Shown piece after piece: positions 7,000 through 27,196 of a DNA stretch of 50,964 bases; position 1 is the first letter of the stretch; each line of letters opens with the position of its first letter. Both the position numbers and the translations under genes were made by a program. The DNA lies in assembly GCA_009887135.1 (NCBI GenBank), contig QXYA01000101.1:1-50964 (forward strand), written 5' to 3'. This DNA comes from Candidatus Poseidoniales archaeon. Its GTDB lineage: Archaea; Thermoplasmatota; Poseidoniia; Poseidoniales; Poseidoniaceae. The notes beneath the pieces are model-generated. The model saw only the letters and a list, made by a program, of their open reading frames with translations. It was not told where the DNA came from and did no database searches.

Positions 7000-9465
7000 A
7001 TGTCTGAATCTAAAGATACTGAATTAATACCCCTTTCTGCACACAAAAACACGTGGACTCAACGTGATTTACTTGCAAGTATTATCGGTCGATACATGAC
7101 TGTGAAGTCTCACCTTGGGGGCCTCTGGCCAACGTGGGATGTGGAATCTGAACATCTCGACAAACGCTTAATTGAACTGAACATCTATCTCGAAAAACTT
7201 GGATGGATGGCACGTTTACGTCGCGGCGATAACAATCAACTCACAGCATTACCACTCCCTCACGGTCAGTTTCCTGGAAAAAGAATTCACATGTATATGT
7301 GGATTGCTTCGATCATAACAGTTCTTATTTCTGGCGTTCGTTGGATGGATTCTGGTAGGCCAGAAGGTGGCTGGTTCATTGAATCGGTCTACCTTGATGC
7401 ATTCATTGGATATGTATTGCCTATTCTCTTCACTCTCGGACTCGCTTCCTTTGTACAAGCCAAGATTTCATCGCATTATGGTGTTCGAAGCGGGCATATT
7501 TTGCCTATACCAGACCCTTCGATACTTCTTTGGCTCTTCTCAGGTTTATCAGCATCTTATTTCATCTGGCCGTTTGGAATCTTCTTCATACCGACATTGC
7601 CCAGGATGGATGCCCGCCCATGGCCAGATCGTAAATCACTTGCCTACTCTTCACTCAGTGTTCCCGTGGTTATGCTGCTAAGTGGATTTATCCTCTGGAC
7701 AGTAGGGATATTCCTCTCATCTGACCCGTTCACACTTACAAGTGAGCCAATTCGACTCAATGCTCCATTCTTGATTGAACTCTTTGGCTCTGGTTTCGAT
7801 CAATACTTTGATATTCATCTCGATTGGAGTCATCCTTTCCTCTTTGCTGCATCGTATATGACATTGGTTGGATGGCTTCTTCTTCTTCCAATTCCCACTT
7901 TCCCTGGCGGCCGATTACTTGTTTCCAGAATGGGGATACATGAGGCTAGAAGCTCTAGCACTCAAATTCTGATGTTTATGATTCTAATCACTGCAGCATT
8001 TTTCATATTCAATGCCTTTGAAGGATTCACAATTTGGATTCCTATACTTGCAGTCGTTCTTCCGTTGTTATTGTTTATTGGTGGAGATCCTCGGATTCCA
8101 GTTCTCCTTGACGGCGATGTACCGCTTGATGAAGAATCTCATCGCAGTCTAGGGATCATTCTCTTTGTTGCACTTCTGTTTGCCATTCCTCCCGAATTTC
8201 CTCTAGAACCCGTTGATCGTTGGGACTCAGATTTAGAATATACAATTGAGGATGCAGGATATGCGGAATTGGTTGATGATTTTTGGAATTCGACTCAAAC
8301 TATTATCCTATCAAACCCTTCGATGCAAGCAAATAGTTACAAATTATCCCTTGCTTTAATTTCTGACTCGGATTGGATTTCGACACTATCGTGTGAATCA
8401 ACGAATTGCGAGGGAATTCTTGATTCTGATGATTCCCTCTCCATCACAATAGATTTTAGCCATGTCAATTCATCGATAATGCCGACATATCTTGTTTATG
8501 AGATCCAACTCGTTCTTGGAGAAGAACAATTCTTGGAATCCTTCATGCTTTATCCTGACTTGAATTCATCAGTTGGTTCCGAATGGAGTTACCTTCGAAC
8601 TGAATCGAGTGTCTTAACTTGCCTTTCAGTATATCTTCTTGAAGACATGACTGCAACTGTATCATTGCCTAATCTCGATGCAAAATGGGCATCGTATCTC
8701 TGGTTTGCTGGTGAAGCAGGTCTGGAAACAGAAGTTGACTGGCAATCCAATTCAATATGCTTGGAGAGTAATGACCACGGGCTGACAGATTCTCTCTCCA
8801 CCGAGTTGGAACTTGTTGAACTCGATGGTAATCAATTTCATGTTGGTTTCGACAAGACATGGCCGCATGTTGTATCTGCTTCTGAAGCAGGTTGGCTGAT
8901 TAATGATGAACTTGGCTGGGGTGCTCCGTTTGGAAACGATACAGGTTTACTTTACAGAGAAAATAGTACGACGTGCACCGGTAATGAATTCTTGAGCACA
9001 CCTCGACATTCAAACACAACCAATTGGACATGGGACTTGAGTATTTGGCCTAGTCAAAGGATACCTCTAATCGATGAGAATGAATCAGTCCACGTCAAGT
9101 TCCCAAGTGGCCATTATTATCATTGTAATATTGAATCATTAGAACAAACCAGGTTTATGATTCAAGAGGGACCTGATATCGTTCTTAAAATCGATGACCA
9201 ACTCCTGAGACTTTGGGATGCTCCATTGAATATAAGCGGTGAAAGCATAGAGTTTTCACTCTACAATAGCAACAATGAATCTGTTCTTCTTCGACATGAA
9301 ACAAATGGAGATGCTCAATGGACTCTTTCATCCCTCCCCAGCGCTTTACCTCAAGGTTGGACGCACTTCGATGTGCCTGTTCCAAGTACTGAACGTTCCA
9401 CAGTTCAACTGATTCATCAAGATGGAGCAATACTGCTTCAGTTCGGTGGCTACTTGGAGGGTTAG
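7000..9465 (+). CDS. Multi-pass membrane protein with site-2 protease (M50)-like N-terminal domain lacking catalytic motifs and a large acidic C-terminal domain
   Basis: About 8-9 TM segments. 'ILFTLGLASFVQAKISSHYGVRSGHILPIP' aligns by eye with the M50 HExxH helix region and 'LLLLPIPTFPGGRLL' with the NxxPxxxxDG motif. Start at ATG 7000 (GTG 6988 also possible). Confidence 0.6.
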   Translation: MSESKDTELIPLSAHKNTWTQRDLLASIIGRYMTVKSHLGGLWPTWDVESEHLDKRLIELNIYLEKLGWMARLRRGDNNQLTALPLPHGQFPGKRIHMYMWIASIITVLISGVRWMDSGRPEGGWFIESVYLDAFIGYVLPILFTLGLASFVQAKISSHYGVRSGHILPIPDPSILLWLFSGLSASYFIWPFGIFFIPTLPRMDARPWPDRKSLAYSSLSVPVVMLLSGFILWTVGIFLSSDPFTLTSEPIRLNAPFLIELFGSGFDQYFDIHLDWSHPFLFAASYMTLVGWLLLLPIPTFPGGRLLVSRMGIHEARSSSTQILMFMILITAAFFIFNAFEGFTIWIPILAVVLPLLLFIGGDPRIPVLLDGDVPLDEESHRSLGIILFVALLFAIPPEFPLEPVDRWDSDLEYTIEDAGYAELVDDFWNSTQTIILSNPSMQANSYKLSLALISDSDWISTLSCESTNCEGILDSDDSLSITIDFSHVNSSIMPTYLVYEIQLVLGEEQFLESFMLYPDLNSSVGSEWSYLRTESSVLTCLSVYLLEDMTATVSLPNLDAKWASYLWFAGEAGLETEVDWQSNSICLESNDHGLTDSLSTELELVELDGNQFHVGFDKTWPHVVSASEAGWLINDELGWGAPFGNDTGLLYRENSTTCTGNEFLSTPRHSNTTNWTWDLSIWPSQRIPLIDENESVHVKFPSGHYYHCNIESLEQTRFMIQEGPDIVLKIDDQLLRLWDAPLNISGESIEFSLYNSNNESVLLRHETNGDAQWTLSSLPSALPQGWTHFDVPVPSTERSTVQLIHQDGAILLQFGGYLEG

Positions 9466-18615: not shown

Positions 18616-19911
18616 TTAAGCACGATATGCTTCAAGTATCTCTGAAACTTTAGTTTGAGTAATTGGTCCATCGTGTTCAATCAAGAGTTTCGCAACATCC
18701 TCTATTTCTTTACCTTCTGCACCAGCACTGACGGCCATATTCCTTGCGTGGAGTCTCATGTGACCTTTCTGTATCCCGCTTGTAGCAAGTGCTCTAAGGG
18801 CTCCTAGATTCTGAGCAAGTCCTGCTGCAGCCATCACTGAAGCGAGTTCTTGAGCAGATTCAACACCGAGAATTTCGAGGTTCGTTCGGGCAACAGGATG
18901 TACTTTGGAGGCGCCTCCAACAATCCCAACCGCCATAGGCGTCTCAATTGAACCAACCAGATTACCTTCTGAATCAAGTTCCCAGTGAGTCATGGATCCA
19001 TATCTGCCTTGTGAATAGGCAACATACGCATGACAGCCTGCTTCGATTGCTCTCCAATCTTGGCCACATGCTACAGCAACGGCTGATATGCCGTTCATGA
19101 CGCCTTTGTTATGCGTTGCAGCCCTGTATGGGTCTGCAACTGCAAAATGGTATGCTTCAAGTATGCCTTCAATGATTTTGGAACCATCGAGTTTTTCCCC
19201 GGAGTTACTAATTTCCTCCGGAGTGAACGTAGCCCTTACACGTGCAAGTCTTTCAGTGGCTAGATTGCTTAGAATCCGTAACAAAGCCCTCCCATTGGTT
19301 ATTCGTTCGAGTTCTGGTGCCAGGAGTTCAGCCATTGTATTGACGGCGTTTGCCCCCATCGCATCTCTGCAGTCTACGTGAATGTGGACGATAAACATCT
19401 GTCCCGAGAGAGTTTCTATGCTTCGAGTTGTGATATCTTTGCATCCTCCTCCTAGACGTACCATGGTCGAAGGTAAGCTGTTTGCCAATTTGATTAAGGT
19501 ATCCTTATTCTCAAGAACTCCTTGTTTTGCCTCATCATGATCGTCAATATCTAGGAGTTGAATTTGAGCAATCATCATTGGTCCATCATTGCTTGATGTG
19601 AAACCTCCATGCACATGACAACGCTTAGCCATGTTCGATGCAGCAGCGACAACGCTTGATTCTTCAAGACAAAATGGGATGACATAGTGCTTTTCGTCGA
19701 TGATGAAGTTTGTTGCAACCCCGACTGGGAGGGACATCGTTCCAATGACATTCTCAATCATTCGATCTGCTGCACTATCGTCCAGTTCTCCGTTTTTCGC
19801 TAACGCAGCAACTTGTTCAGGGAGAAGATTAGAACTTTCTGCAATAAGTTGTCGTCGTTCAATGACAGACAGTTTGTAGAATCCTTTCAAGCGGCTGTTA
19901 TTGACAGGCAT
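18616..19911 (-). CDS. mvaA: Hydroxymethylglutaryl-CoA reductase, class II (MvaA/degradative type)
   Basis: 'IENVIG', 'EESSVVAAAS', 'DAMGANAVNT', 'RILSNL', 'THNKG.MNG', 'GIQKGHMRLH'. Start reassigned to ATG 19911 with a purine-rich RBS upstream. Confidence 0.92.
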   Translation of the reverse strand: MPVNNSRLKGFYKLSVIERRQLIAESSNLLPEQVAALAKNGELDDSAADRMIENVIGTMSLPVGVATNFIIDEKHYVIPFCLEESSVVAAASNMAKRCHVHGGFTSSNDGPMMIAQIQLLDIDDHDEAKQGVLENKDTLIKLANSLPSTMVRLGGGCKDITTRSIETLSGQMFIVHIHVDCRDAMGANAVNTMAELLAPELERITNGRALLRILSNLATERLARVRATFTPEEISNSGEKLDGSKIIEGILEAYHFAVADPYRAATHNKGVMNGISAVAVACGQDWRAIEAGCHAYVAYSQGRYGSMTHWELDSEGNLVGSIETPMAVGIVGGASKVHPVARTNLEILGVESAQELASVMAAAGLAQNLGALRALATSGIQKGHMRLHARNMAVSAGAEGKEIEDVAKLLIEHDGPITQTKVSEILEAYRA

Positions 19912-19967
19912 AGTCTCTCTCCCCGTGCGAGCCAGATGTTCTTGAAACATCAACCAATCGGAACAAG

Positions 19968-20022
19968 TTAACGCGTTTAACGCTTTAATTAACGCGTTAA
20001 AAAAGCGTTAATGGTGCGTTAA
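19968..20022. repeat. Nested inverted-repeat array of six TTAACGC units around the perfect palindrome TTAACGCGTTAA
   Basis: TTAACGC at 19968, 19977, 19989; GCGTTAA at 19994, 20005, 20016. TTAACGCTTT (19977-19986) pairs perfectly with AAAGCGTTAA (20002-20011). Located in a divergent intergenic region. Confidence 0.85.
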
Positions 20023-20128
20023 TAGGGGTTGTTTATAGATTCTCGTCGTCGGATTAACGTGTCCTAACAGGTCTCTCATAGCCCCAAATTCCATGAAAGG
20101 TCATATACTTGTTCGAAGTTGCTCGTAC

Positions 20129-21835
20129 ATGCATACTGGAACGGTTGATTTGCGACTACCAAGTCTCCGAAAAGATCCCTTTTCCCAAGGAGCTATCTCG
20201 GCAAAGGAGTCCAACCTTCTTGTTGGAAGGCACTCACACTTCGAAGAGATGGAGAAGAATATCCAATTCAAATCATCTCGAAGGATTCTTCTTGTAGGCG
20301 AATATGGGTCTGGGAAGACTTCATTCGTCAACTGTATTGGCGGTAAGACAAATTTGCACATCCATGTTGACCGAATTGATACAATGAATCCTGGTTTGGA
20401 GTTACTTCGAGATATTTATTCCCAAGTTGTTAATGCCACAGCGCCTAATGATCATAAAAAACTTGAACGAGAACTTGAAGCCTCTCTTCACAACAAAAGA
20501 AATTACTTGCCGTTAATATCAGTTGATGCTGATATGGCTAATATTGCTTCTTTAGAGGCTTGCTTACTGGCCTCAATGCCCTTTTTCGAACGTTTATCTG
20601 CATTGATTGTTGTAGCCGTCAATCCAAATCAAAAATCTCTTCTCTCTGAACAGATAAGAGAACGTTTCGAAGTAAGACTGATGCAGGAATTGGATGTAGA
20701 TTGTGTAAAAGCCCTTGTTGAACGCCGAATTGCGACGTGTTCAAACGAACCCTATCAGATGACTACAGAGGAAGCTGGAAAGGTATTGGCTGCGAGCCGA
20801 AACGGTCATCCAGGATCTATTATCAAAGTTCTACGAGCCGTAATTGATGGTCAGATGTTACCTGAATTACCAAGGAGTTCGATTGCAGAACAGACCGTCA
20901 TCGAACAAATTGCCCCCCCCACTCCTCAAGAAGTTGATGCGAGCCCTTTCAATCAGGAAGAGGAACTACTCGATGAACTTGAATCAGCGGGAATTCCTGA
21001 GCAAGAAGAAGAAACAGATGTCCAAGCTACCGATGAGTGGGAGGATGGGCCTGGTATGTCTGGTACCATGGGCTTTGATCTCAATCTCGAATCACTTGAA
21101 GAACCAATTATGGAGGAAACTAAGGAGAAGCCCATTGAGGATACATATGTGACTGAAGACAGTTTACAACCAGTTGGTATCTTTGGAGGACTTAGAGGTC
21201 GTTGGAAACAGACCAGCCAGTCGATAAACGAGGCAGAAGAACCGGAAGGCGAGTATAAACAACTCGATGGTGCTAATTCCTTATGGGTGAGCAAAGACTC
21301 ACTTACGTTACAGGACGATTCTGAAGAGGATGTTTTAGAGGTTGTAGACGATCAAGAACCTGAAGATCTCATACCGGATTCCTTTGAGTCCGACTACCAA
21401 CAGATGGTTGAAGAAAACACTCCTCTGCCAAACCAATCGATGTTGGAAACACTTACCGATTTACTCTCAAAACTTCTTTCTCCCTCAGGAGATAATACGG
21501 TTTCGAACAAGCTTGCTGAAAGCCTACAAACTCTTTCTCGCCCCAAAATAGGAACTAAAGCAGAACATCCTCTAAAAGTCCAAGTTCTGACATCACTCAC
21601 GAATGCAGAGACGATTGTTGTTTCAATCGCTCAACAACGAACGATATCTCCTTCCGACAAACAGTTGTTGGAGAAATTGAACATTAAACGAGCAAGACTG
21701 TCACAGATTTGTAATCGATTACACAAAGCAGGCATACTTGATGTAAGGATGGTTGGACGGTCGAGAATGTTTGGTCTAACCCGAACAGCACTTGCCCAAA
21801 TGATGGCATGGGGCCTCGTAGGAGGTGATGTGTGA
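20129..21835 (+). CDS. AAA+/P-loop NTPase-like protein with long acidic linker and C-terminal winged helix-turn-helix
   Basis: 'LVGR..HFEEM' then Walker A 'ILLVGEYGSGKTS'; degenerate Walker B 'LISVDAD'; 'NGHPG.II' lid motif; ~200-aa D/E/P-rich linker; C-terminal 'LNIKRARLSQICNRLHKAGILDVRMVGRSRMFGLT'. Start ATG 20129 (20093 also possible). Confidence 0.7.
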   Translation: MHTGTVDLRLPSLRKDPFSQGAISAKESNLLVGRHSHFEEMEKNIQFKSSRRILLVGEYGSGKTSFVNCIGGKTNLHIHVDRIDTMNPGLELLRDIYSQVVNATAPNDHKKLERELEASLHNKRNYLPLISVDADMANIASLEACLLASMPFFERLSALIVVAVNPNQKSLLSEQIRERFEVRLMQELDVDCVKALVERRIATCSNEPYQMTTEEAGKVLAASRNGHPGSIIKVLRAVIDGQMLPELPRSSIAEQTVIEQIAPPTPQEVDASPFNQEEELLDELESAGIPEQEEETDVQATDEWEDGPGMSGTMGFDLNLESLEEPIMEETKEKPIEDTYVTEDSLQPVGIFGGLRGRWKQTSQSINEAEEPEGEYKQLDGANSLWVSKDSLTLQDDSEEDVLEVVDDQEPEDLIPDSFESDYQQMVEENTPLPNQSMLETLTDLLSKLLSPSGDNTVSNKLAESLQTLSRPKIGTKAEHPLKVQVLTSLTNAETIVVSIAQQRTISPSDKQLLEKLNIKRARLSQICNRLHKAGILDVRMVGRSRMFGLTRTALAQMMAWGLVGGDV

Positions 21836-22872
21836 TGTCTTGGACAGTTTCATGGTCTTGGCAAGCCCCATCGCGGATTAGTGCAATAGCCGTAATAGAT
21901 GGTCAACTTGCAGTAGCCTATGGTTTGGATTTGATTCTCTTTAATGAGTCCAATGAGATCCAATGGAAGCAAACAATGCCGTTCAAGGTTCACGCTATTT
22001 GTAATGGTGAAGGGACAATTGGTATCCTAGCAGCACACGGTTTCTTTGTTCTGAAAACAGTTGATGGGACCATGCTCCACGAAGGTAGAAGCAGCCCAGG
22101 TGGCTTCTTGCACCTTCTTCATCGACCAGGAGGAGGATGGATTCTTTCTGGGAGAGATGGAAATCTCCACCTTTTCGATTCAAATGGTAAAGGAATTCGC
22201 AGAATTTCCTCTGGGATTGTTCGAAGACTTGTCGGATGGCTAGATCGGGAACATTTGCTATGGCAATCTTCTGAAGGAGTTATTTTATGTGGGCAAATCG
22301 CTAACCAAGACAAACGTAGAGTCATTGATACAACAGTTTGGAGTTGGTGCTCTTTGCTTATGGATGGCCGATTGCTTCTGTTATCTTCCGATGGTCAATT
22401 GTGGGAAGGAACCCCCCATCCATTTGGATGGGATTCCATGAATCGAGTTGAAACAGATTCTCTGGAACCTCTCATGGCTACAAGGGCAGGAGATGGATGG
22501 TGGGTGCTCGGAATTGAAGGGCATCTTGACCATTTAGCTACTGAAAACGAATTATCTCGAATAGGAGATGGTATGGAACTTGGCGATTTACTTCTACGAT
22601 TAGGCCGTAATTCGATGATTACTGCTCGTAGAGATGGTTTGACAAGACGTTGGGTTGATCCTGCTCTTGCAGAAGAAGAAAAGCGGCACAGGCATCAAGA
22701 AGCAGCAGATGCGAAACTTGCTCGTAGCTGGGAAGAACGACGAACATTGTTCCAGAGAGCACAAACTGCAGAGGATGAAGGTCGCCTTTCACGAGCGATC
22801 GAATTGTATGAAGCTCTTGGTAGAAAAGACGACGTAAAGCGTCTCTTAGGGCGACAAAAAGGTGGTGATTGA
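21832..22872 (+). CDS. Beta-propeller (WD40/PQQ-like) protein with C-terminal helical/TPR-like tail
   Basis: Trp-rich beta repeats such as 'ILSGRDGNLHLFD', 'LLLSSDGQLW' and 'ITARRDGLTRRW'; tail 'AEDEGRLSRAIELYEALGR'. GTGA overlap with the upstream stop and GGAGGTGA RBS. Confidence 0.6.
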   Translation: MMSWTVSWSWQAPSRISAIAVIDGQLAVAYGLDLILFNESNEIQWKQTMPFKVHAICNGEGTIGILAAHGFFVLKTVDGTMLHEGRSSPGGFLHLLHRPGGGWILSGRDGNLHLFDSNGKGIRRISSGIVRRLVGWLDREHLLWQSSEGVILCGQIANQDKRRVIDTTVWSWCSLLMDGRLLLLSSDGQLWEGTPHPFGWDSMNRVETDSLEPLMATRAGDGWWVLGIEGHLDHLATENELSRIGDGMELGDLLLRLGRNSMITARRDGLTRRWVDPALAEEEKRHRHQEAADAKLARSWEERRTLFQRAQTAEDEGRLSRAIELYEALGRKDDVKRLLGRQKGGD

Positions 22873-25944: not shown

Positions 25945-27129
25945 TCATCCGTTCAGTTTTTTGACAACACGGCCTTCAATTCTGGCAGCAACATCCATTG
26001 GAAGGGCATGCGGCATCGAGATATGGGTCGTTCTTCCACGACCATCACCAACAGTATCTACGCGAGTGTCAATAATGCTCAACCCCTCAATTATTTTGAG
26101 ATATTTCCAAACTGTTGTGTGGCTTCTAGGCTTTACTTCGTATTCTTCACAAACGACCGTGTACATCGATTCTACATCTTTACTTGTCATGAATTCAGTT
26201 TTGCGTAGGCGTCGGCAAATACCCAAAAGAACCAGCATCGGATGGCCTGTTAACTCATCAAGAACATCTTCAGGCATGACCTGAGGTATGGCTTTAGCCC
26301 GTGTTTGAACATGTTCTGGCTCGAGCATGGATTTCCCGTCAGACTCCGCATGTTCGACAGCACCATTGAGTAATTCGATGACTTGACGCGCATCGCCAGA
26401 AGGTGCTGCAGAAGTGGCAATAAGTTTGAGAATTTCTTCAGTCCATGATTGTGGGTTCAGTGCAGCTTCTGCTCGCTGACGAGTAATCGCTAGTAAACCG
26501 TCGTAATCATATGATGGAATCGGCAAATGGTTCGTGTGTCCAAAGCGAGAGATGACTGCATTTTCGAGTACATCAAGAACCTGCTCTTGACTGATTAGAA
26601 TAAGAGAAATCGTCCCACTACCTTCCTGATCTTCATCAATACGAAGGAGTTGGTAAATCAGATCGTTTCCAGATTTTCGCAGCAGGTGATCAACCTCATC
26701 GAGTACAATAATCAGATGTCGTTCATTTGAGCGTAGTAGGCGTCGAAGGCTGTTGAGCAACTCGCCCATTGAAAGTCCTCTATCCGGATGCCCTGCATCC
26801 AATGTCTGAACAATACGTTGTGCGACTCGGACATTTGTTGTTGCATTCCTACAATTGATGTGGACGCTTCTAATCTGACGTTTATTTCTTAGATGATGTT
26901 CAATATCACGACAAAAAGTCCTAGCAAGTAATGTCTTACCACTTCCGACTGGTCCCGTGATGACAACGTTAGCACTACTGTTTGGATGGGATATCGAATG
27001 AAACTTTGCAGCGAGGTTACTTTGAATCTCTCCGCGCCCGACCATCGCTTCTGGCATGAAATCAAAATCCAACGGACCAGGGTCTAGAAGGATAAGACCA
27101 GAACCAATTCGATCAAGGTAGTCGCTCAT
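25945..27129 (-). CDS. cdc6: Cdc6/Orc1 replication initiation protein
   Basis: 'LDFDFMPE..VGR', Walker A 'GPVGSGKT', 'HINC', Walker B 'IVLDEVDHL', 'GDARQVIELL', C-terminal wing 'GRGRTT.I'. Start ATG 27129. Confidence 0.93.
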   Translation of the reverse strand: MSDYLDRIGSGLILLDPGPLDFDFMPEAMVGRGEIQSNLAAKFHSISHPNSSANVVITGPVGSGKTLLARTFCRDIEHHLRNKRQIRSVHINCRNATTNVRVAQRIVQTLDAGHPDRGLSMGELLNSLRRLLRSNERHLIIVLDEVDHLLRKSGNDLIYQLLRIDEDQEGSGTISLILISQEQVLDVLENAVISRFGHTNHLPIPSYDYDGLLAITRQRAEAALNPQSWTEEILKLIATSAAPSGDARQVIELLNGAVEHAESDGKSMLEPEHVQTRAKAIPQVMPEDVLDELTGHPMLVLLGICRRLRKTEFMTSKDVESMYTVVCEEYEVKPRSHTTVWKYLKIIEGLSIIDTRVDTVGDGRGRTTHISMPHALPMDVAARIEGRVVKKLNG

Positions 27130-27196
27130 GCTGATTGGCTCTTGTCGCCAACCGTTCTTGAACACTCGTACTCAATCAAGAATGAAAAGTAGAGTC

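What the first reader, a model, noticed from the sequence alone, without database searches (positions are those of the whole stretch)
19968..20061. Nested palindrome of six TTAACGC units: candidate centromere-, origin- or operator-like cis site
Seen: in 55 bp, three TTAACGC units point inward from the left (19968, 19977, 19989) and three from the right (GCGTTAA at 19994, 20005, 20016; spacing 11 and 11 bp, about one helical turn). They are centred on the perfect 12-mer TTAACGCGTTAA, with a variant TTAACGTG at 20054. I saw no comparable density of one motif elsewhere in the window. It does not match the archaeal ORB consensus (TCCA...GAAAC plus G-string) or bacterial parS. Inference: phased, symmetric iterated sites are typical of cooperative nucleoprotein platforms (iterons, centromeres, initiator or repressor arrays), and the DNA could also extrude a cruciform. 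The site lies directly upstream of an AAA+-wHTH gene and ~1.3 kb from smc-scpAB.
Basis: partly seen in the sequence, partly recalled or inferred. Interest (0 to 1): 0.78.

Follow-up and report, generated by a model that had tools for sequence, protein, structure and literature searches.

The report
Conserved operator array of Orc1-like regulator
A tight cluster of six to eight copies of the short DNA word TTAACG, kept at one single place in the genomes of an abundant order of marine archaea, is most likely the docking platform of the unusual Orc1/Cdc6-like DNA-binding protein encoded right next to it and controls that gene, and it is not the chromosome's replication origin.

Summary
Six TTAACGC units (three forward, three reverse) lie in window 19968-20022, with a variant at 20054. 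It is the only such cluster among 116 copies in the 1.87-Mb genome.

The array is a conserved cis-element. All 29 related loci with upstream DNA carry it before the same gene, as do 72 of 80 further loci. Units are mostly 11 bp apart and spacers vary freely.

The neighbouring gene (20129-21835) encodes an order-restricted protein: an Orc1/Cdc6-like AAA+ domain, an acidic disordered linker and a MarR/ArsR-like winged helix. Its ATPase motifs are degenerate.

The origin reading is disfavoured. Canonical inverted ORB pairs lie elsewhere in 9 of 11 genomes examined; two more hold a single ORB. In one single-contig genome the pair sits at the strand-bias switch, 428 kb from the array.

Best reading (about 0.5): a cooperative binding platform of the neighbouring protein that controls its own promoter and perhaps mvaA. 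Binding is inferred, not shown. A centromere-like role, an SMC-loading role or a second origin is not excluded.

The parts
19968..19974 (+). unit 1, TTAACGC (core TTAACG)
   Evidence: The core is conserved in 24 of 24 genus loci apart from T/C at its first base. The 7th base varies between C and G.
19977..19983 (+). unit 2, TTAACGC, 9 bp after unit 1
19989..20000 (.). units 3 (+) and 4 (-), overlapping as the perfect palindrome TTAACGCGTTAA
   Evidence: The 12-mer is unique in the genome. It is the best-conserved block of the genus alignment.
20005..20011 (-). unit 5, GCGTTAA on the + strand, 11 bp after unit 4
20016..20022 (-). unit 6, GCGTTAA on the + strand, 11 bp after unit 5
20052..20072 (+). 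distal site GATTAACGTGTCCTAACAGGT: one TTAACG unit plus a weaker TAACA unit 11 bp further on
   Evidence: Conserved block in 24 of 24 genus loci, between two variable spacers. Family f3 has an analogous distal CGTTAA followed by two GCGTGA-type variants.
20092..20128 (+). conserved promoter-proximal block with a TATA-like TCATATAC (20101-20108) about 25 nt before the ATG. It is the inferred promoter of a leaderless or near-leaderless mRNA.
   Evidence: One search shows near-invariant columns up to the ATG. There is no Shine-Dalgarno-like word, although such words are common elsewhere in the genome. The promoter role is inferred.
20129..21835 (+). gene of the Orc1/Cdc6-like AAA+ / acidic linker / wHTH protein (568 aa), the presumed binder
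   Evidence: The start is fixed by stop codons upstream in relatives. Fold. Distribution.
19948..19963 (.). conserved block CATCAACCAATCGGAA (genus consensus CATGAAnCAATCGGAAG) between the mvaA start and unit 1. Its role is unknown; it may be an mvaA promoter or leader element.
18616..19911 (-). mvaA (HMG-CoA reductase), divergently oriented and a possible second target of the array
   Evidence: Pfam PF00368, E 2.5e-111. Its distance to the array is not conserved in family f3.

Best explanation
The array is a set of iterated, helically phased recognition sites (unit about 11 bp, core TTAACG) for the winged-helix domain of the protein encoded immediately downstream. That protein is an order-specific, Orc1/Cdc6-like AAA+ protein with a degenerate ATPase site.

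I propose that several copies bind cooperatively, head-to-tail within each half-array and head-to-head at the central palindrome. This would form one nucleoprotein complex per chromosome, 105 to 160 bp upstream of the protein's own promoter. From these strong sites occupancy would spread to the weaker distal and promoter-proximal variants. The platform would then set the expression of the protein's own gene (autoregulation). In this genus unit 1 lies about 57 bp from the mvaA start, so it may also affect the divergent mvaA promoter.

Shown: the site is real, unique in the genome, conserved and phased. The neighbouring protein has an AAA+ plus wHTH fold and is co-inherited with the array. The main replication origin lies elsewhere.

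Inferred: that this protein is the binder, that binding is cooperative, and that the output is transcriptional.
For: (1) Conservation. All 29 related loci with upstream DNA carry 3 to 7 TTAACG within 450 nt before the gene. This holds even where the protein is only 25 to 31% identical. 72 of 80 further loci carry at least 4 hexamers in 120 bp; a reversed control hexamer reaches at most 3.

(2) Footprint. In 24 genus loci the units are near-invariant and the spacers vary, with no indels inside the array.

(3) Phasing. 11 bp is the commonest same-orientation spacing: 120 neighbour pairs in f2/f3, and 11, 12 and 9 bp in the genus. The extended unit is R-TTAACG-C-w-T-y-r.

(4) One locus per genome. 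The exact pair CGTTAA-N5-CGTTAA occurs in 107 of 151 genomes of the order. In 18 of the 19 genomes where one search also places the gene, the match lies just upstream of it. In the single-contig genome G039 it is the only non-coding cluster of 5 or more copies of any 7-mer in 150 bp; the other 6 such loci lie in ORFs.

(5) Coupling to the AAA+-wHTH gene. The distance from array to its ATG is 108 to 141 nt in 57 of 63 loci. The distance to the mvaA ATG ranges from -1 to 231.

(6) Weaker variants run toward the TATA-like box.

(7) The protein. The AF2 model has an AAA+ domain at 20-245 and a wHTH at 484-561. The top Foldseek hit is S. solfataricus Cdc6/Orc1 on origin DNA, 2qby_A, E 2.7e-8. The C-terminal domain resembles MarR/ArsR repressors. 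The wHTH is the best-conserved part, with invariant P, S, R, R, S, Q and G in and around the recognition helix.

(8) Co-distribution. The gene is found in 104 of 105 sampled genomes of families f1 and f3, and in 0 of 45 from other families of the class.

(9) Precedent. An Orc1/Cdc6 paralogue acts as a sequence-specific transcription factor in Sulfolobus (PMC6061795, abstract and passages read).
Against: There is no binding data of any kind. The pairing of protein and site rests on adjacency and co-inheritance.

The motif and the recognition helix are both invariant, so there is no co-variation to exploit. No independent lineage carries the wHTH alone.

The main array lies 105 to 160 bp upstream of the inferred TATA box. 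That is far for an archaeal repressor, so an activator or architectural role is equally possible.

A regulator with only one target locus is unusual. Single TTAACGC copies are not enriched in non-coding DNA: 14 of 110 against 9.9% of the genome. The copy before smc is conserved at that position in only 7 of 30 loci.

In 36 of 44 family members the Walker A lysine is arginine. None of 45 has a glutamate after the Walker B aspartate. ATP-driven assembly of the DnaA or Orc type may therefore not apply.

Synteny is conserved over the whole smc...orc1 block, so adjacency alone carries less weight.
Confidence: 0.5

Rival explanations
1. The array is an operator or upstream activating site for a different transcription factor encoded elsewhere. 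It controls mvaA (isoprenoid lipid synthesis) and/or the AAA+-wHTH gene, and the neighbouring protein is only a target.
For: The array lies between two divergent genes. In this genus unit 1 is about 57 bp from the mvaA ATG, beside a second conserved block of unknown role. mvaA is the left neighbour in all three families.
Against: The distance to mvaA is not conserved (-1 to 231 nt), whereas the distance to the AAA+-wHTH gene is. A dedicated factor with a single site per genome would still be needed. The neighbouring protein carries a well-conserved wHTH and has exactly the same taxonomic range as the array.
Confidence: 0.15
2. The array is a centromere-like or SMC-loading chromosome-organising site. 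The Orc1-like protein coats the phased repeats as a partition or loading complex next to smc-scpAB. Autoregulation would be a by-product, as at plasmid centromeres.
For: The site is unique in the chromosome and consists of phased iterated repeats. It lies 1.35 kb from smc-scpA-scpB in conserved synteny across the order. The degenerate ATPase fits a structural role. The long acidic disordered linker carries a small conserved element that could recruit partners.
Against: No ParA, ParM or SegA-type NTPase or ParB-like gene lies beside it. In the single-contig genomes G039 and G041 the site is 428 and 491 kb from the ORB origin. No evidence links it to SMC beyond synteny, which is conserved for the whole block.
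Confidence: 0.1
3. The array is a second, accessory replication origin with its own captured initiator, as at Sulfolobus oriC3 with WhiP or at multi-origin haloarchaea. It would work through the Orc1/Cdc6-like neighbour.
For: The initiator-like AAA+-wHTH gene lies directly beside inverted repeat arrays. A canonical orc1/cdc6 paralogue lies 4 to 7 kb away in conserved synteny: window 25945-27130 on the minus strand, and also in G026, G037 and G039. The layout recalls the two clusters of closely spaced (2 bp apart) DnaA sites of E. coli oriC (PMC6070618, passages read).
Against: There is no ORB match and no AT-rich unwinding element: GC is 0.43 in the intergenic region and 0.46 in the spacer, against 0.28 at the ORB-flanked element on C128. 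G039 shows no strand-bias or skew extremum at the array (614 kb). Its gene-orientation curve has one minimum at 185.7 kb and one maximum at 941 kb. The Walker A and B motifs are degenerate. The intergenic region is only 217 bp.
Confidence: 0.08
4. The inverted repeats act through nucleic-acid structure, either a DNA cruciform or an RNA hairpin such as a terminator or sRNA, and not as protein sites.
For: As single-stranded DNA, 19960-20030 folds to -15 kcal/mol, z -3.3, and 0 of 200 shuffles fold as well.
Against: Pairing comes from the units alone. Unit positions pair in 389 of 432 cells, spacer positions in only 62 of 120, with no compensatory pattern. Family f3 has a different order of orientations but the same units. 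No Rfam family matches the intergenic region.
Confidence: 0.02

Closest known systems
Archaeal Orc1/Cdc6 with ORB elements at oriC
   Same: Both have an initiator-type AAA+ domain followed by a C-terminal winged helix. In both, the gene lies next to an array of its presumed sites in inverted orientation. The best structural match is S. solfataricus Cdc6/Orc1 on origin DNA.
   Different: The motif is TTAACG, not ORB, and there is no unwinding element. The genuine ORB origin lies elsewhere. The wHTH is MarR/ArsR-like and not Cdc6_C. A disordered acidic insert of about 180 aa is present. Walker A is mostly GSGRTS and there is no Walker B glutamate.
Sulfolobus/Saccharolobus Orc1-2, an Orc1/Cdc6 paralogue working as a transcription factor (PMC6061795; PMC9738581 seen in the search listing only)
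   Same: Both are non-initiator members of the Orc1 architecture that recognise a short promoter motif (a hexanucleotide there) and regulate transcription.
   Different: Orc1-2 is a bona fide Cdc6/Orc1-family member with a regulon of many promoters and single sites. Here there is one locus per genome with 6 to 8 phased sites, and the protein does not reach Pfam thresholds for any Orc/Cdc6 model.
DnaA-box arrays of bacterial oriC and the autoregulated dnaA promoter
   Same: Both pair an AAA+ protein carrying a C-terminal DNA-binding domain with oriented short sites. In E. coli oriC each cluster holds four 9-mers separated by 2 bp (PMC6070618), which I work out as an 11-bp period. The two-oppositely-oriented-arrays description is known to me only from the title of a cited reference (Rozgaja et al. 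2011), which I did not read. DnaA also regulates its own and other promoters (PMC13438810, abstract start in the search listing only).
   Different: The domain of life, the protein family and the motif all differ. No unwinding element is present and the ATPase site is probably inactive. This is an analogy of mechanism, not membership.
MarR / ArsR-SmtB repressors and their palindromic operators
   Same: The C-terminal domain's nearest solved folds are ZitR, AdcR, CadC, HlyU and SmtB. A perfect 12-bp palindrome sits at the array's centre.
   Different: Those are small dimeric proteins with one or two operators overlapping the promoter. Here the wHTH is fused to an AAA+ domain, and the sites number 6 to 8 and lie mainly upstream of the promoter. 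Pfam and NCBIfam scores are far below the cut-offs.
Plasmid and chromosomal centromeres made of phased short repeats (ParR-parC, omega protein heptads, SegB sites; recalled, not looked up here)
   Same: Both are arrays of short repeats about one helical turn apart, in direct and inverted orientation. Both lie upstream of the gene of the binding protein and combine assembly of a higher-order complex with autoregulation.
   Different: No partition NTPase gene is adjacent. The binder would be a wHTH-AAA+ protein and not a ribbon-helix-helix or ParB type.
STAND/LAL-type regulators such as MalT (recalled)
   Same: The best Pfam signals of the family are AAA_16 (42 of 45 members) and nSTAND1 (15 of 45). 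In both, multiple boxes lie upstream of the regulated promoters and are bound by an oligomerising NTPase with a C-terminal HTH.
   Different: There is no sensor or repeat domain and no LuxR-type HTH. This protein is archaeal, and it has a single locus.

Membership tests
Archaeal replication origin (ORB/mini-ORB with DUE) | Repeats match the ORB consensus (core TTCCAGTGGAAA followed by a G-string, as quoted in PMC4153887 Table 2) | tested here: not met
   No match with up to 2 mismatches lies in 19900-20130 of contig C4. Full ORBs are found on C128 and C16 instead.
Archaeal replication origin (ORB/mini-ORB with DUE) | AT-rich unwinding element flanked by inverted repeats | tested here: not met
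   GC is 0.43 in the intergenic region and 0.46 in the spacer. It is 0.28 between the inverted ORBs on C128 and 0.449 for the genome.
Archaeal replication origin (ORB/mini-ORB with DUE) | Coincides with a switch of strand bias or skew | tested here: not met
   In single-contig G039 the gene-orientation minimum is at 185.7 kb and the GC3-skew maximum at 184.9 kb, at the ORB pair (186.2-186.4 kb). The array is at 614.4 kb with no extremum. Plain AT skew gives other extremes (342.6 and 1174.9 kb), none at the array.
Archaeal replication origin (ORB/mini-ORB with DUE) | Adjacent orc1/cdc6 initiator gene | tested here: inconclusive
   The neighbour has an Orc1-like fold but is not a Cdc6_C-bearing Orc1. 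A canonical orc1/cdc6 gene lies 6 kb away, at 25945-27130 on the minus strand.
Archaeal replication origin (ORB/mini-ORB with DUE) | Initiates replication | not testable with these tools
   This needs marker-frequency analysis or an autonomous-replication assay.
Orc1/Cdc6 protein family (for the neighbouring gene) | AAA+ base and lid followed by a winged helix, with structural similarity to solved Orc1/Cdc6 | tested here: met
   AF2 model, mean pLDDT 75.9, with the domains above 90. Foldseek rank 1 is 2qby_A (E 2.7e-8), rank 2 is 7jgr_A and rank 46 is 2v1u_A. RFC, MuB and RuvB score within about one to two orders of magnitude.
Orc1/Cdc6 protein family (for the neighbouring gene) | Reaches curated Pfam thresholds for Cdc6_C or ORC/Cdc6 AAA models | tested here: not met
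   There are 0 families at E 1e-3 for the 580-aa form. PF24389 ORC-CDC6-like is matched by only 3 of 45 members, best E 0.0015, and there is no Cdc6_C match.
Orc1/Cdc6 protein family (for the neighbouring gene) | Intact Walker A (GKT/S) and Walker B (DE) | tested here: not met
   Walker A lysine is present in 8 of 44 members (this genus included) and is arginine in 36. The Walker B aspartate is invariant, but 0 of 45 members have a following glutamate.
MarR / ArsR-type repressor with operator | wHTH fold of that type | tested here: met
   The C-terminal model has pLDDT 86.3. Its top Foldseek hits are ZitR, AdcR, CadC, HlyU and SmtB, with E 2e-4 to 3e-3.
MarR / ArsR-type repressor with operator | Reaches curated family thresholds | tested here: not met
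   MarR_2 scores 18 bits against a cut-off of 27. NCBIfam HTH_metalloreg scores 17.5 against 55.
MarR / ArsR-type repressor with operator | Palindromic operator overlapping the regulated promoter | tested here: inconclusive
   A perfect palindrome exists, but it lies 129 to 140 nt before the ATG. Only weaker variants approach the TATA-like box.
Partition centromere (parS / parC / SegB-site type) | Array of phased repeats bound by the product of the adjacent gene | tested here: inconclusive
   The phased repeats are shown. Binding is not shown.
Partition centromere (parS / parC / SegB-site type) | Adjacent partition NTPase (ParA, ParM or SegA) or ParB-like gene | tested here: not met
   Pfam and NCBIfam scans of the neighbours give none.

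The most novel reading that the evidence does not exclude
An abundant order of marine planktonic archaea has evolved, from the Orc1/Cdc6 scaffold, a catalytically degenerate AAA+-wHTH protein. This protein assembles on one dedicated, helically phased iteron array per chromosome, next to smc-scpAB. The assembly serves a chromosome-level function (a centromere, an SMC-loading site or an accessory origin) and not plain gene regulation. It would be an archaeal counterpart of ParB-parS or of a second, non-ORB origin.
Probability: 0.15. Interest if true: 0.8.

Novelty: new variant of a known kind. Interest (0 to 1): 0.55.

Why it matters
These archaea (record titles of related loci name Marine Group II / Poseidoniales) are, from my own knowledge and not checked in a call, among the commonest archaea of the surface ocean. 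None is in culture, so almost nothing is known about their gene regulation or chromosome biology.

This locus offers a rare, fully defined pair to test in vitro: a 55-bp array with a clear grammar, and a candidate binder of 568 aa from a family with no annotation.

If the binder is confirmed, it would be a second, independent case of the Orc1/Cdc6 scaffold being turned into a site-specific regulator or architectural protein. This one would have an apparently dead ATPase and DnaA-like phased site arrays.

As a by-product, the work locates the likely canonical oriC of these genomes: inverted ORB pairs about 160 bp apart. That is useful for growth-rate estimates from metagenome coverage.

Tried and rejected
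1. Regulon search. Single TTAACGC copies are not enriched outside ORFs (14 of 110 against 9.9% of the genome). The copy before smc (12910) is conserved at that position in only 7 of 30 loci, all close relatives. I dropped the idea that smc is a target.

2. The word GTGAAATATC is shared by the smc upstream region and the orthologues' promoter. It occurs only 3 times in the genome and is not a general promoter word. I left it as a possible BRE/TATA context.

3. 'Stand-alone' wHTH proteins (P0099-P0128) looked like an independent lineage for testing the wHTH-motif pairing. All 80 loci found with them are the same gene of the same order, so they are C-terminal fragments. No independent test was possible.

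4. Plain cumulative GC, AT, RY and MK skews of G039 disagree with each other. I relied on gene orientation and GC3 skew. These two measures are not independent of one another.

5. De novo search for other repeat clusters in G039. Only coding repeats turned up, plus one pair of 500-bp-spaced direct repeats. No alternative origin was found this way. The ORB consensus taken from a paper did find it.

6. Homodimer prediction of the wHTH domain: no verdict. It counts neither for nor against binding.

7. Reads. All runs laid were contigs, so no transcript starts could be read. RNA-library contigs over the region may be DNA carry-over. Parts without cover say nothing. Among the rows shown in table 3, the strain differences between 19968 and 20061 (19984, 19986, 20014, 20024, 20029, 20043, 20047-20051, 20061) all fall outside the units. 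The table was cut (60 rows not shown), so I do not build on this.

8. Rfam: nothing in the intergenic region.

9. Literature. Searches for 'Poseidoniales' with 'origin of replication', for 'Marine Group II' with Cdc6 and origin, and for the 12-mer found nothing on this site or protein in the searched library. Subscription journals are not covered, and supplements were closed and not consulted.

10. The Atlas search only returned the family's own weakly named clusters.
Full report
**Observation.** Window 19968-20022 reads TTAACGCGTTTAACGCTTTAATTAACGCGTTAAAAAAGCGTTAATGGTGCGTTAA.
- TTAACGC occurs 8 times in the window. Six copies lie here: three on the + strand (19968, 19977, 19989) and three on the - strand (19994, 20005, 20016).
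- The spacings are 9, 12, overlap, 11 and 11 bp. A variant TTAACGTG lies at 20054.
- In the whole assembly (1,868,900 bases, 174 contigs) the word occurs 116 times. These are 108 singles, one coding pair on contig C47, and this cluster of six. The central 12-mer is unique.
- Markov models expect 64 to 107 copies, so the word itself is not enriched. A cluster of six in 55 bp has a Poisson expectation of about 4e-12 over the genome.
- 14 public runs from 11 studies hold most of the stretch. Contigs from separate runs carry the array. It is therefore not an assembly artefact.

**Setting.**
- On the left, mvaA (HMG-CoA reductase) runs on the minus strand with its ATG at 19911. Upstream of it lies smc-scpA-scpB.
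- On the right, an ORF is listed from 20093. Its real start is the ATG at 20129, because several relatives have stop codons between the two positions and all keep that ATG.
- The non-coding region is therefore 217 bp.
- A canonical orc1/cdc6 gene (Pfam Cdc6_C over its cut-off) lies at 25945-27130 on the minus strand. The same 4 to 7 kb linkage is seen in G026, G037 and G039.

**Conservation.**
- A homologue of the right-hand gene is present in 41 of 41 relatives from three families.
- All 29 loci with upstream DNA carry 3 to 7 TTAACG hexamers within 450 nt before it. This includes loci whose protein is only 25 to 31% identical.
- In an alignment of 24 loci of the genus (protein identity down to 47%) the six units, a distal block GATTAACGTnTCATAACAnGT and a 40-nt promoter-proximal block are nearly invariant. 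The spacers of about 27 and 21 nt are free to vary. There are no indels within the array.
- In 80 further loci of the order, 72 have at least 4 hexamers in 120 bp. A reversed control hexamer reaches at most 3.
- The exact pair CGTTAA-N5-CGTTAA is present in 107 of 151 genomes of the order. In 18 of the 19 genomes where the gene had been placed, the match lies just upstream of it. G021's two matches lie elsewhere, and its own array has one degenerate unit.
- In the single-contig genome G039 the array is the only non-coding place where any 7-mer occurs 5 or more times in 150 bp. The six other places are protein repeats.

**Grammar of the array.**
- The invariant core is TTAACG. The seventh base is C in about 66 to 74% of units.
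- The extended unit is about 11 bp, R-TTAACG-C-w-T-y-r.
- The commonest distance between neighbouring units of the same orientation is 11 bp. There are 120 such neighbour pairs in families f2/f3, and 11, 12 and 9 bp occur in the genus.
- The order of orientations differs between families. It is three forward then three reverse in this genus. In f3 it is one reverse, two forward, two reverse.
- Both families add a distal unit and weaker variants running toward the gene's TATA-like box. These are TAACA here and GCGTGA-type in f3.
- The array keeps its distance to the right-hand ATG (108 to 141 nt in 57 of 63 loci). Its distance to the mvaA ATG is not kept (-1 to 231 nt).

**The neighbouring protein.**
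- It has 568 aa and no Pfam family at E 1e-3.
- Only 134 of 1.84 billion cluster representatives match it.
- In a class-wide sample it is found in 65 of 65 genomes of family f1 and 39 of 40 of f3. It is found in none of 43 and 2 genomes of the two other families with this query.
- The AlphaFold model has a confident AAA+ domain (20-245), a disordered acidic stretch (252-434) with a small conserved element, and a confident wHTH (484-561).
- Foldseek ranks S. solfataricus Cdc6/Orc1 on origin DNA first (E 2.7e-8) and Drosophila ORC second. MuB, RFC and RuvB follow at E up to about 1e-6.
- Family members weakly match AAA_16 (42 of 45), AAA_22 (27), nSTAND1 (15) and ORC-CDC6-like (3).
- The C-terminal domain modelled alone (pLDDT 86) is closest to MarR and ArsR/SmtB repressors. 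It is the best-conserved part of the protein.
- The ATPase site looks degenerate. The Walker A lysine is arginine in 36 of 44 members, though it is lysine in this genus. No member has a glutamate after the invariant Walker B aspartate.

**Is it the origin?** The ORB consensus quoted in PMC4153887 (Table 2, read) finds a textbook origin elsewhere.
- On contig C128 two inverted full ORBs lie 160 bp apart (6767 on the minus strand, 6927 on the plus strand). A weaker third lies at 7055. They flank a stretch of 28% GC.
- In G039 the only two full ORB matches of the genome form an inverted pair at 186,219 and 186,371. This is at the minimum of the cumulative gene-orientation curve (185.7 kb) and the maximum of GC3 skew (184.9 kb). 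The plain GC-skew maximum is at 192.6 kb. The array lies at 614.4 kb, with no extremum.
- Inverted pairs about 160 bp apart also occur in G002, G008, G041, G045, G046, G065 and G077. G031 and G037 show a single ORB. In every case the ORBs are on another contig or far from the array: 294 kb in G037 and 491 kb in G041.
- The array region has no AT-rich element.
- The main origin is therefore elsewhere. A weak accessory origin cannot be excluded by sequence alone.

**Other readings tested.**
- Hairpin or cruciform. The region folds well as single-stranded DNA (z -3.3). Only the units pair (389 of 432 cells). Spacer positions pair at chance-like level (62 of 120) without compensation.
- Known RNA. 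None is found.
- Regulon. Singles are not enriched in non-coding DNA, and the copy before smc is not conserved.

**Mechanism proposed.**
- One wHTH binds one 11-bp unit.
- The common orientation and one-turn spacing within each half-array put successive proteins on one face of the helix. Their AAA+ domains could then contact each other head-to-tail, as in DnaA or Orc1 assemblies.
- The two half-arrays meet at the palindrome.
- From this high-affinity platform, weaker sites toward the TATA-like box would be filled as the protein's concentration rises. This would feed back on its own leaderless transcript.
- In this genus unit 1 abuts the probable mvaA promoter region, so lipid-precursor synthesis may be co-controlled. 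That part is weak, because the distance is not conserved in f3.
- All steps from 'binds' onward are inference.

**Comparison with known systems.**
- The system works like an Orc1-type or DnaA-type protein on an array of oriented boxes, and like autoregulatory centromere or operator arrays of plasmids.
- It is not a member of the ORB-origin class. Motif, unwinding element and strand-switch tests all failed.
- The protein is not a curated Orc1/Cdc6 or MarR/ArsR member. The fold is shared, but thresholds and catalytic motifs are not met.
- The nearest functional precedent is Orc1-2 of Sulfolobales, an Orc1 paralogue that footprints a hexanucleotide in promoters (PMC6061795).

**Novelty and limits.**
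- I found nothing in print on this array or protein in the searched library. Subscription journals and supplements were not covered.
- I rate it a new variant of a known kind. It is an unannotated, order-restricted Orc1-like wHTH protein with a dedicated phased site array.
- The limits are the absence of any binding or expression data, the invariance of both motif and recognition helix (so no co-variation test is possible), and conserved synteny of the whole block.

Noticed in passing
genome contig C128:6767-7078 (not in the window); G039:C1:186219-186390; G002:C26:15086-15265; G008:C2:126319-126498; G041:C1:203746-203929: Probable canonical oriC of these archaea. It consists of two inverted full ORB elements 152 to 164 bp apart flanking an AT-rich stretch (28% GC on C128), next to a small 4Fe-4S ferredoxin-like ORF, and it is not adjacent to either orc1/cdc6 gene. 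In G039 it coincides with the gene-orientation and GC3-skew switch.
   Followed up: partly
genome contig C16:14967-15041: A full ORB (TCTCCAGTGGAAACAGGGGGG) and a partial inverted one lie in the intergenic region just upstream of a roughly 700-aa gene. Its N-terminus looks like MCM by eye, which I did not check with a family search. This could be Orc1 control of mcm or a second ORB site.
   Followed up: no
window 19948-19963: A 16-17 nt block (genus consensus CATGAAnCAATCGGAAG) between the mvaA start and unit 1 is as conserved as the units themselves. It has a different sequence, and its role is unknown.
   Followed up: no
window 21832-22872 (+): A 346-aa ORF overlaps the stop of the AAA+-wHTH gene by 4 nt and has no Pfam or NCBIfam family. 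It follows the gene in all genus loci with downstream DNA (73 to 99% identity, so it evolves more slowly than its neighbour). It is also found in L029 (f2) and L026 (f3). tblastn at E 0.01 did not find it anywhere in G039.
   Followed up: partly
window 25945-27130 (-): A canonical orc1/cdc6 paralogue sits inside a co-oriented gene string with no sizeable upstream intergenic region and no ORB nearby. The second paralogue (C167:1574-2899) has only 112 bp upstream.
   Followed up: partly
G037:C1:277905-279888 and G039:C1:614586-616710: In these two genomes of one genus the AAA+-wHTH gene is read as two overlapping ORFs in different frames (AAA+ part and wHTH part). The other genomes of family f3 listed have one ORF. 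This may be a frameshift, a sequencing error or a genuine split.
   Followed up: no
G039:C1:1103497-1104015: Two near-identical words of about 20 nt (CTAATTCACTTTCAGAAAT-like) lie 500 bp apart as direct repeats around a small minus-strand ORF, with a third copy of the 10-mer beside the first. This may be the border of a small inserted element.
   Followed up: no
L175: One of the 80 related loci carries a record title naming an Acidimicrobiaceae bacterium, although it holds the archaeal gene and an array of at least 4 units. It is probably a mis-binned contig.
   Followed up: no
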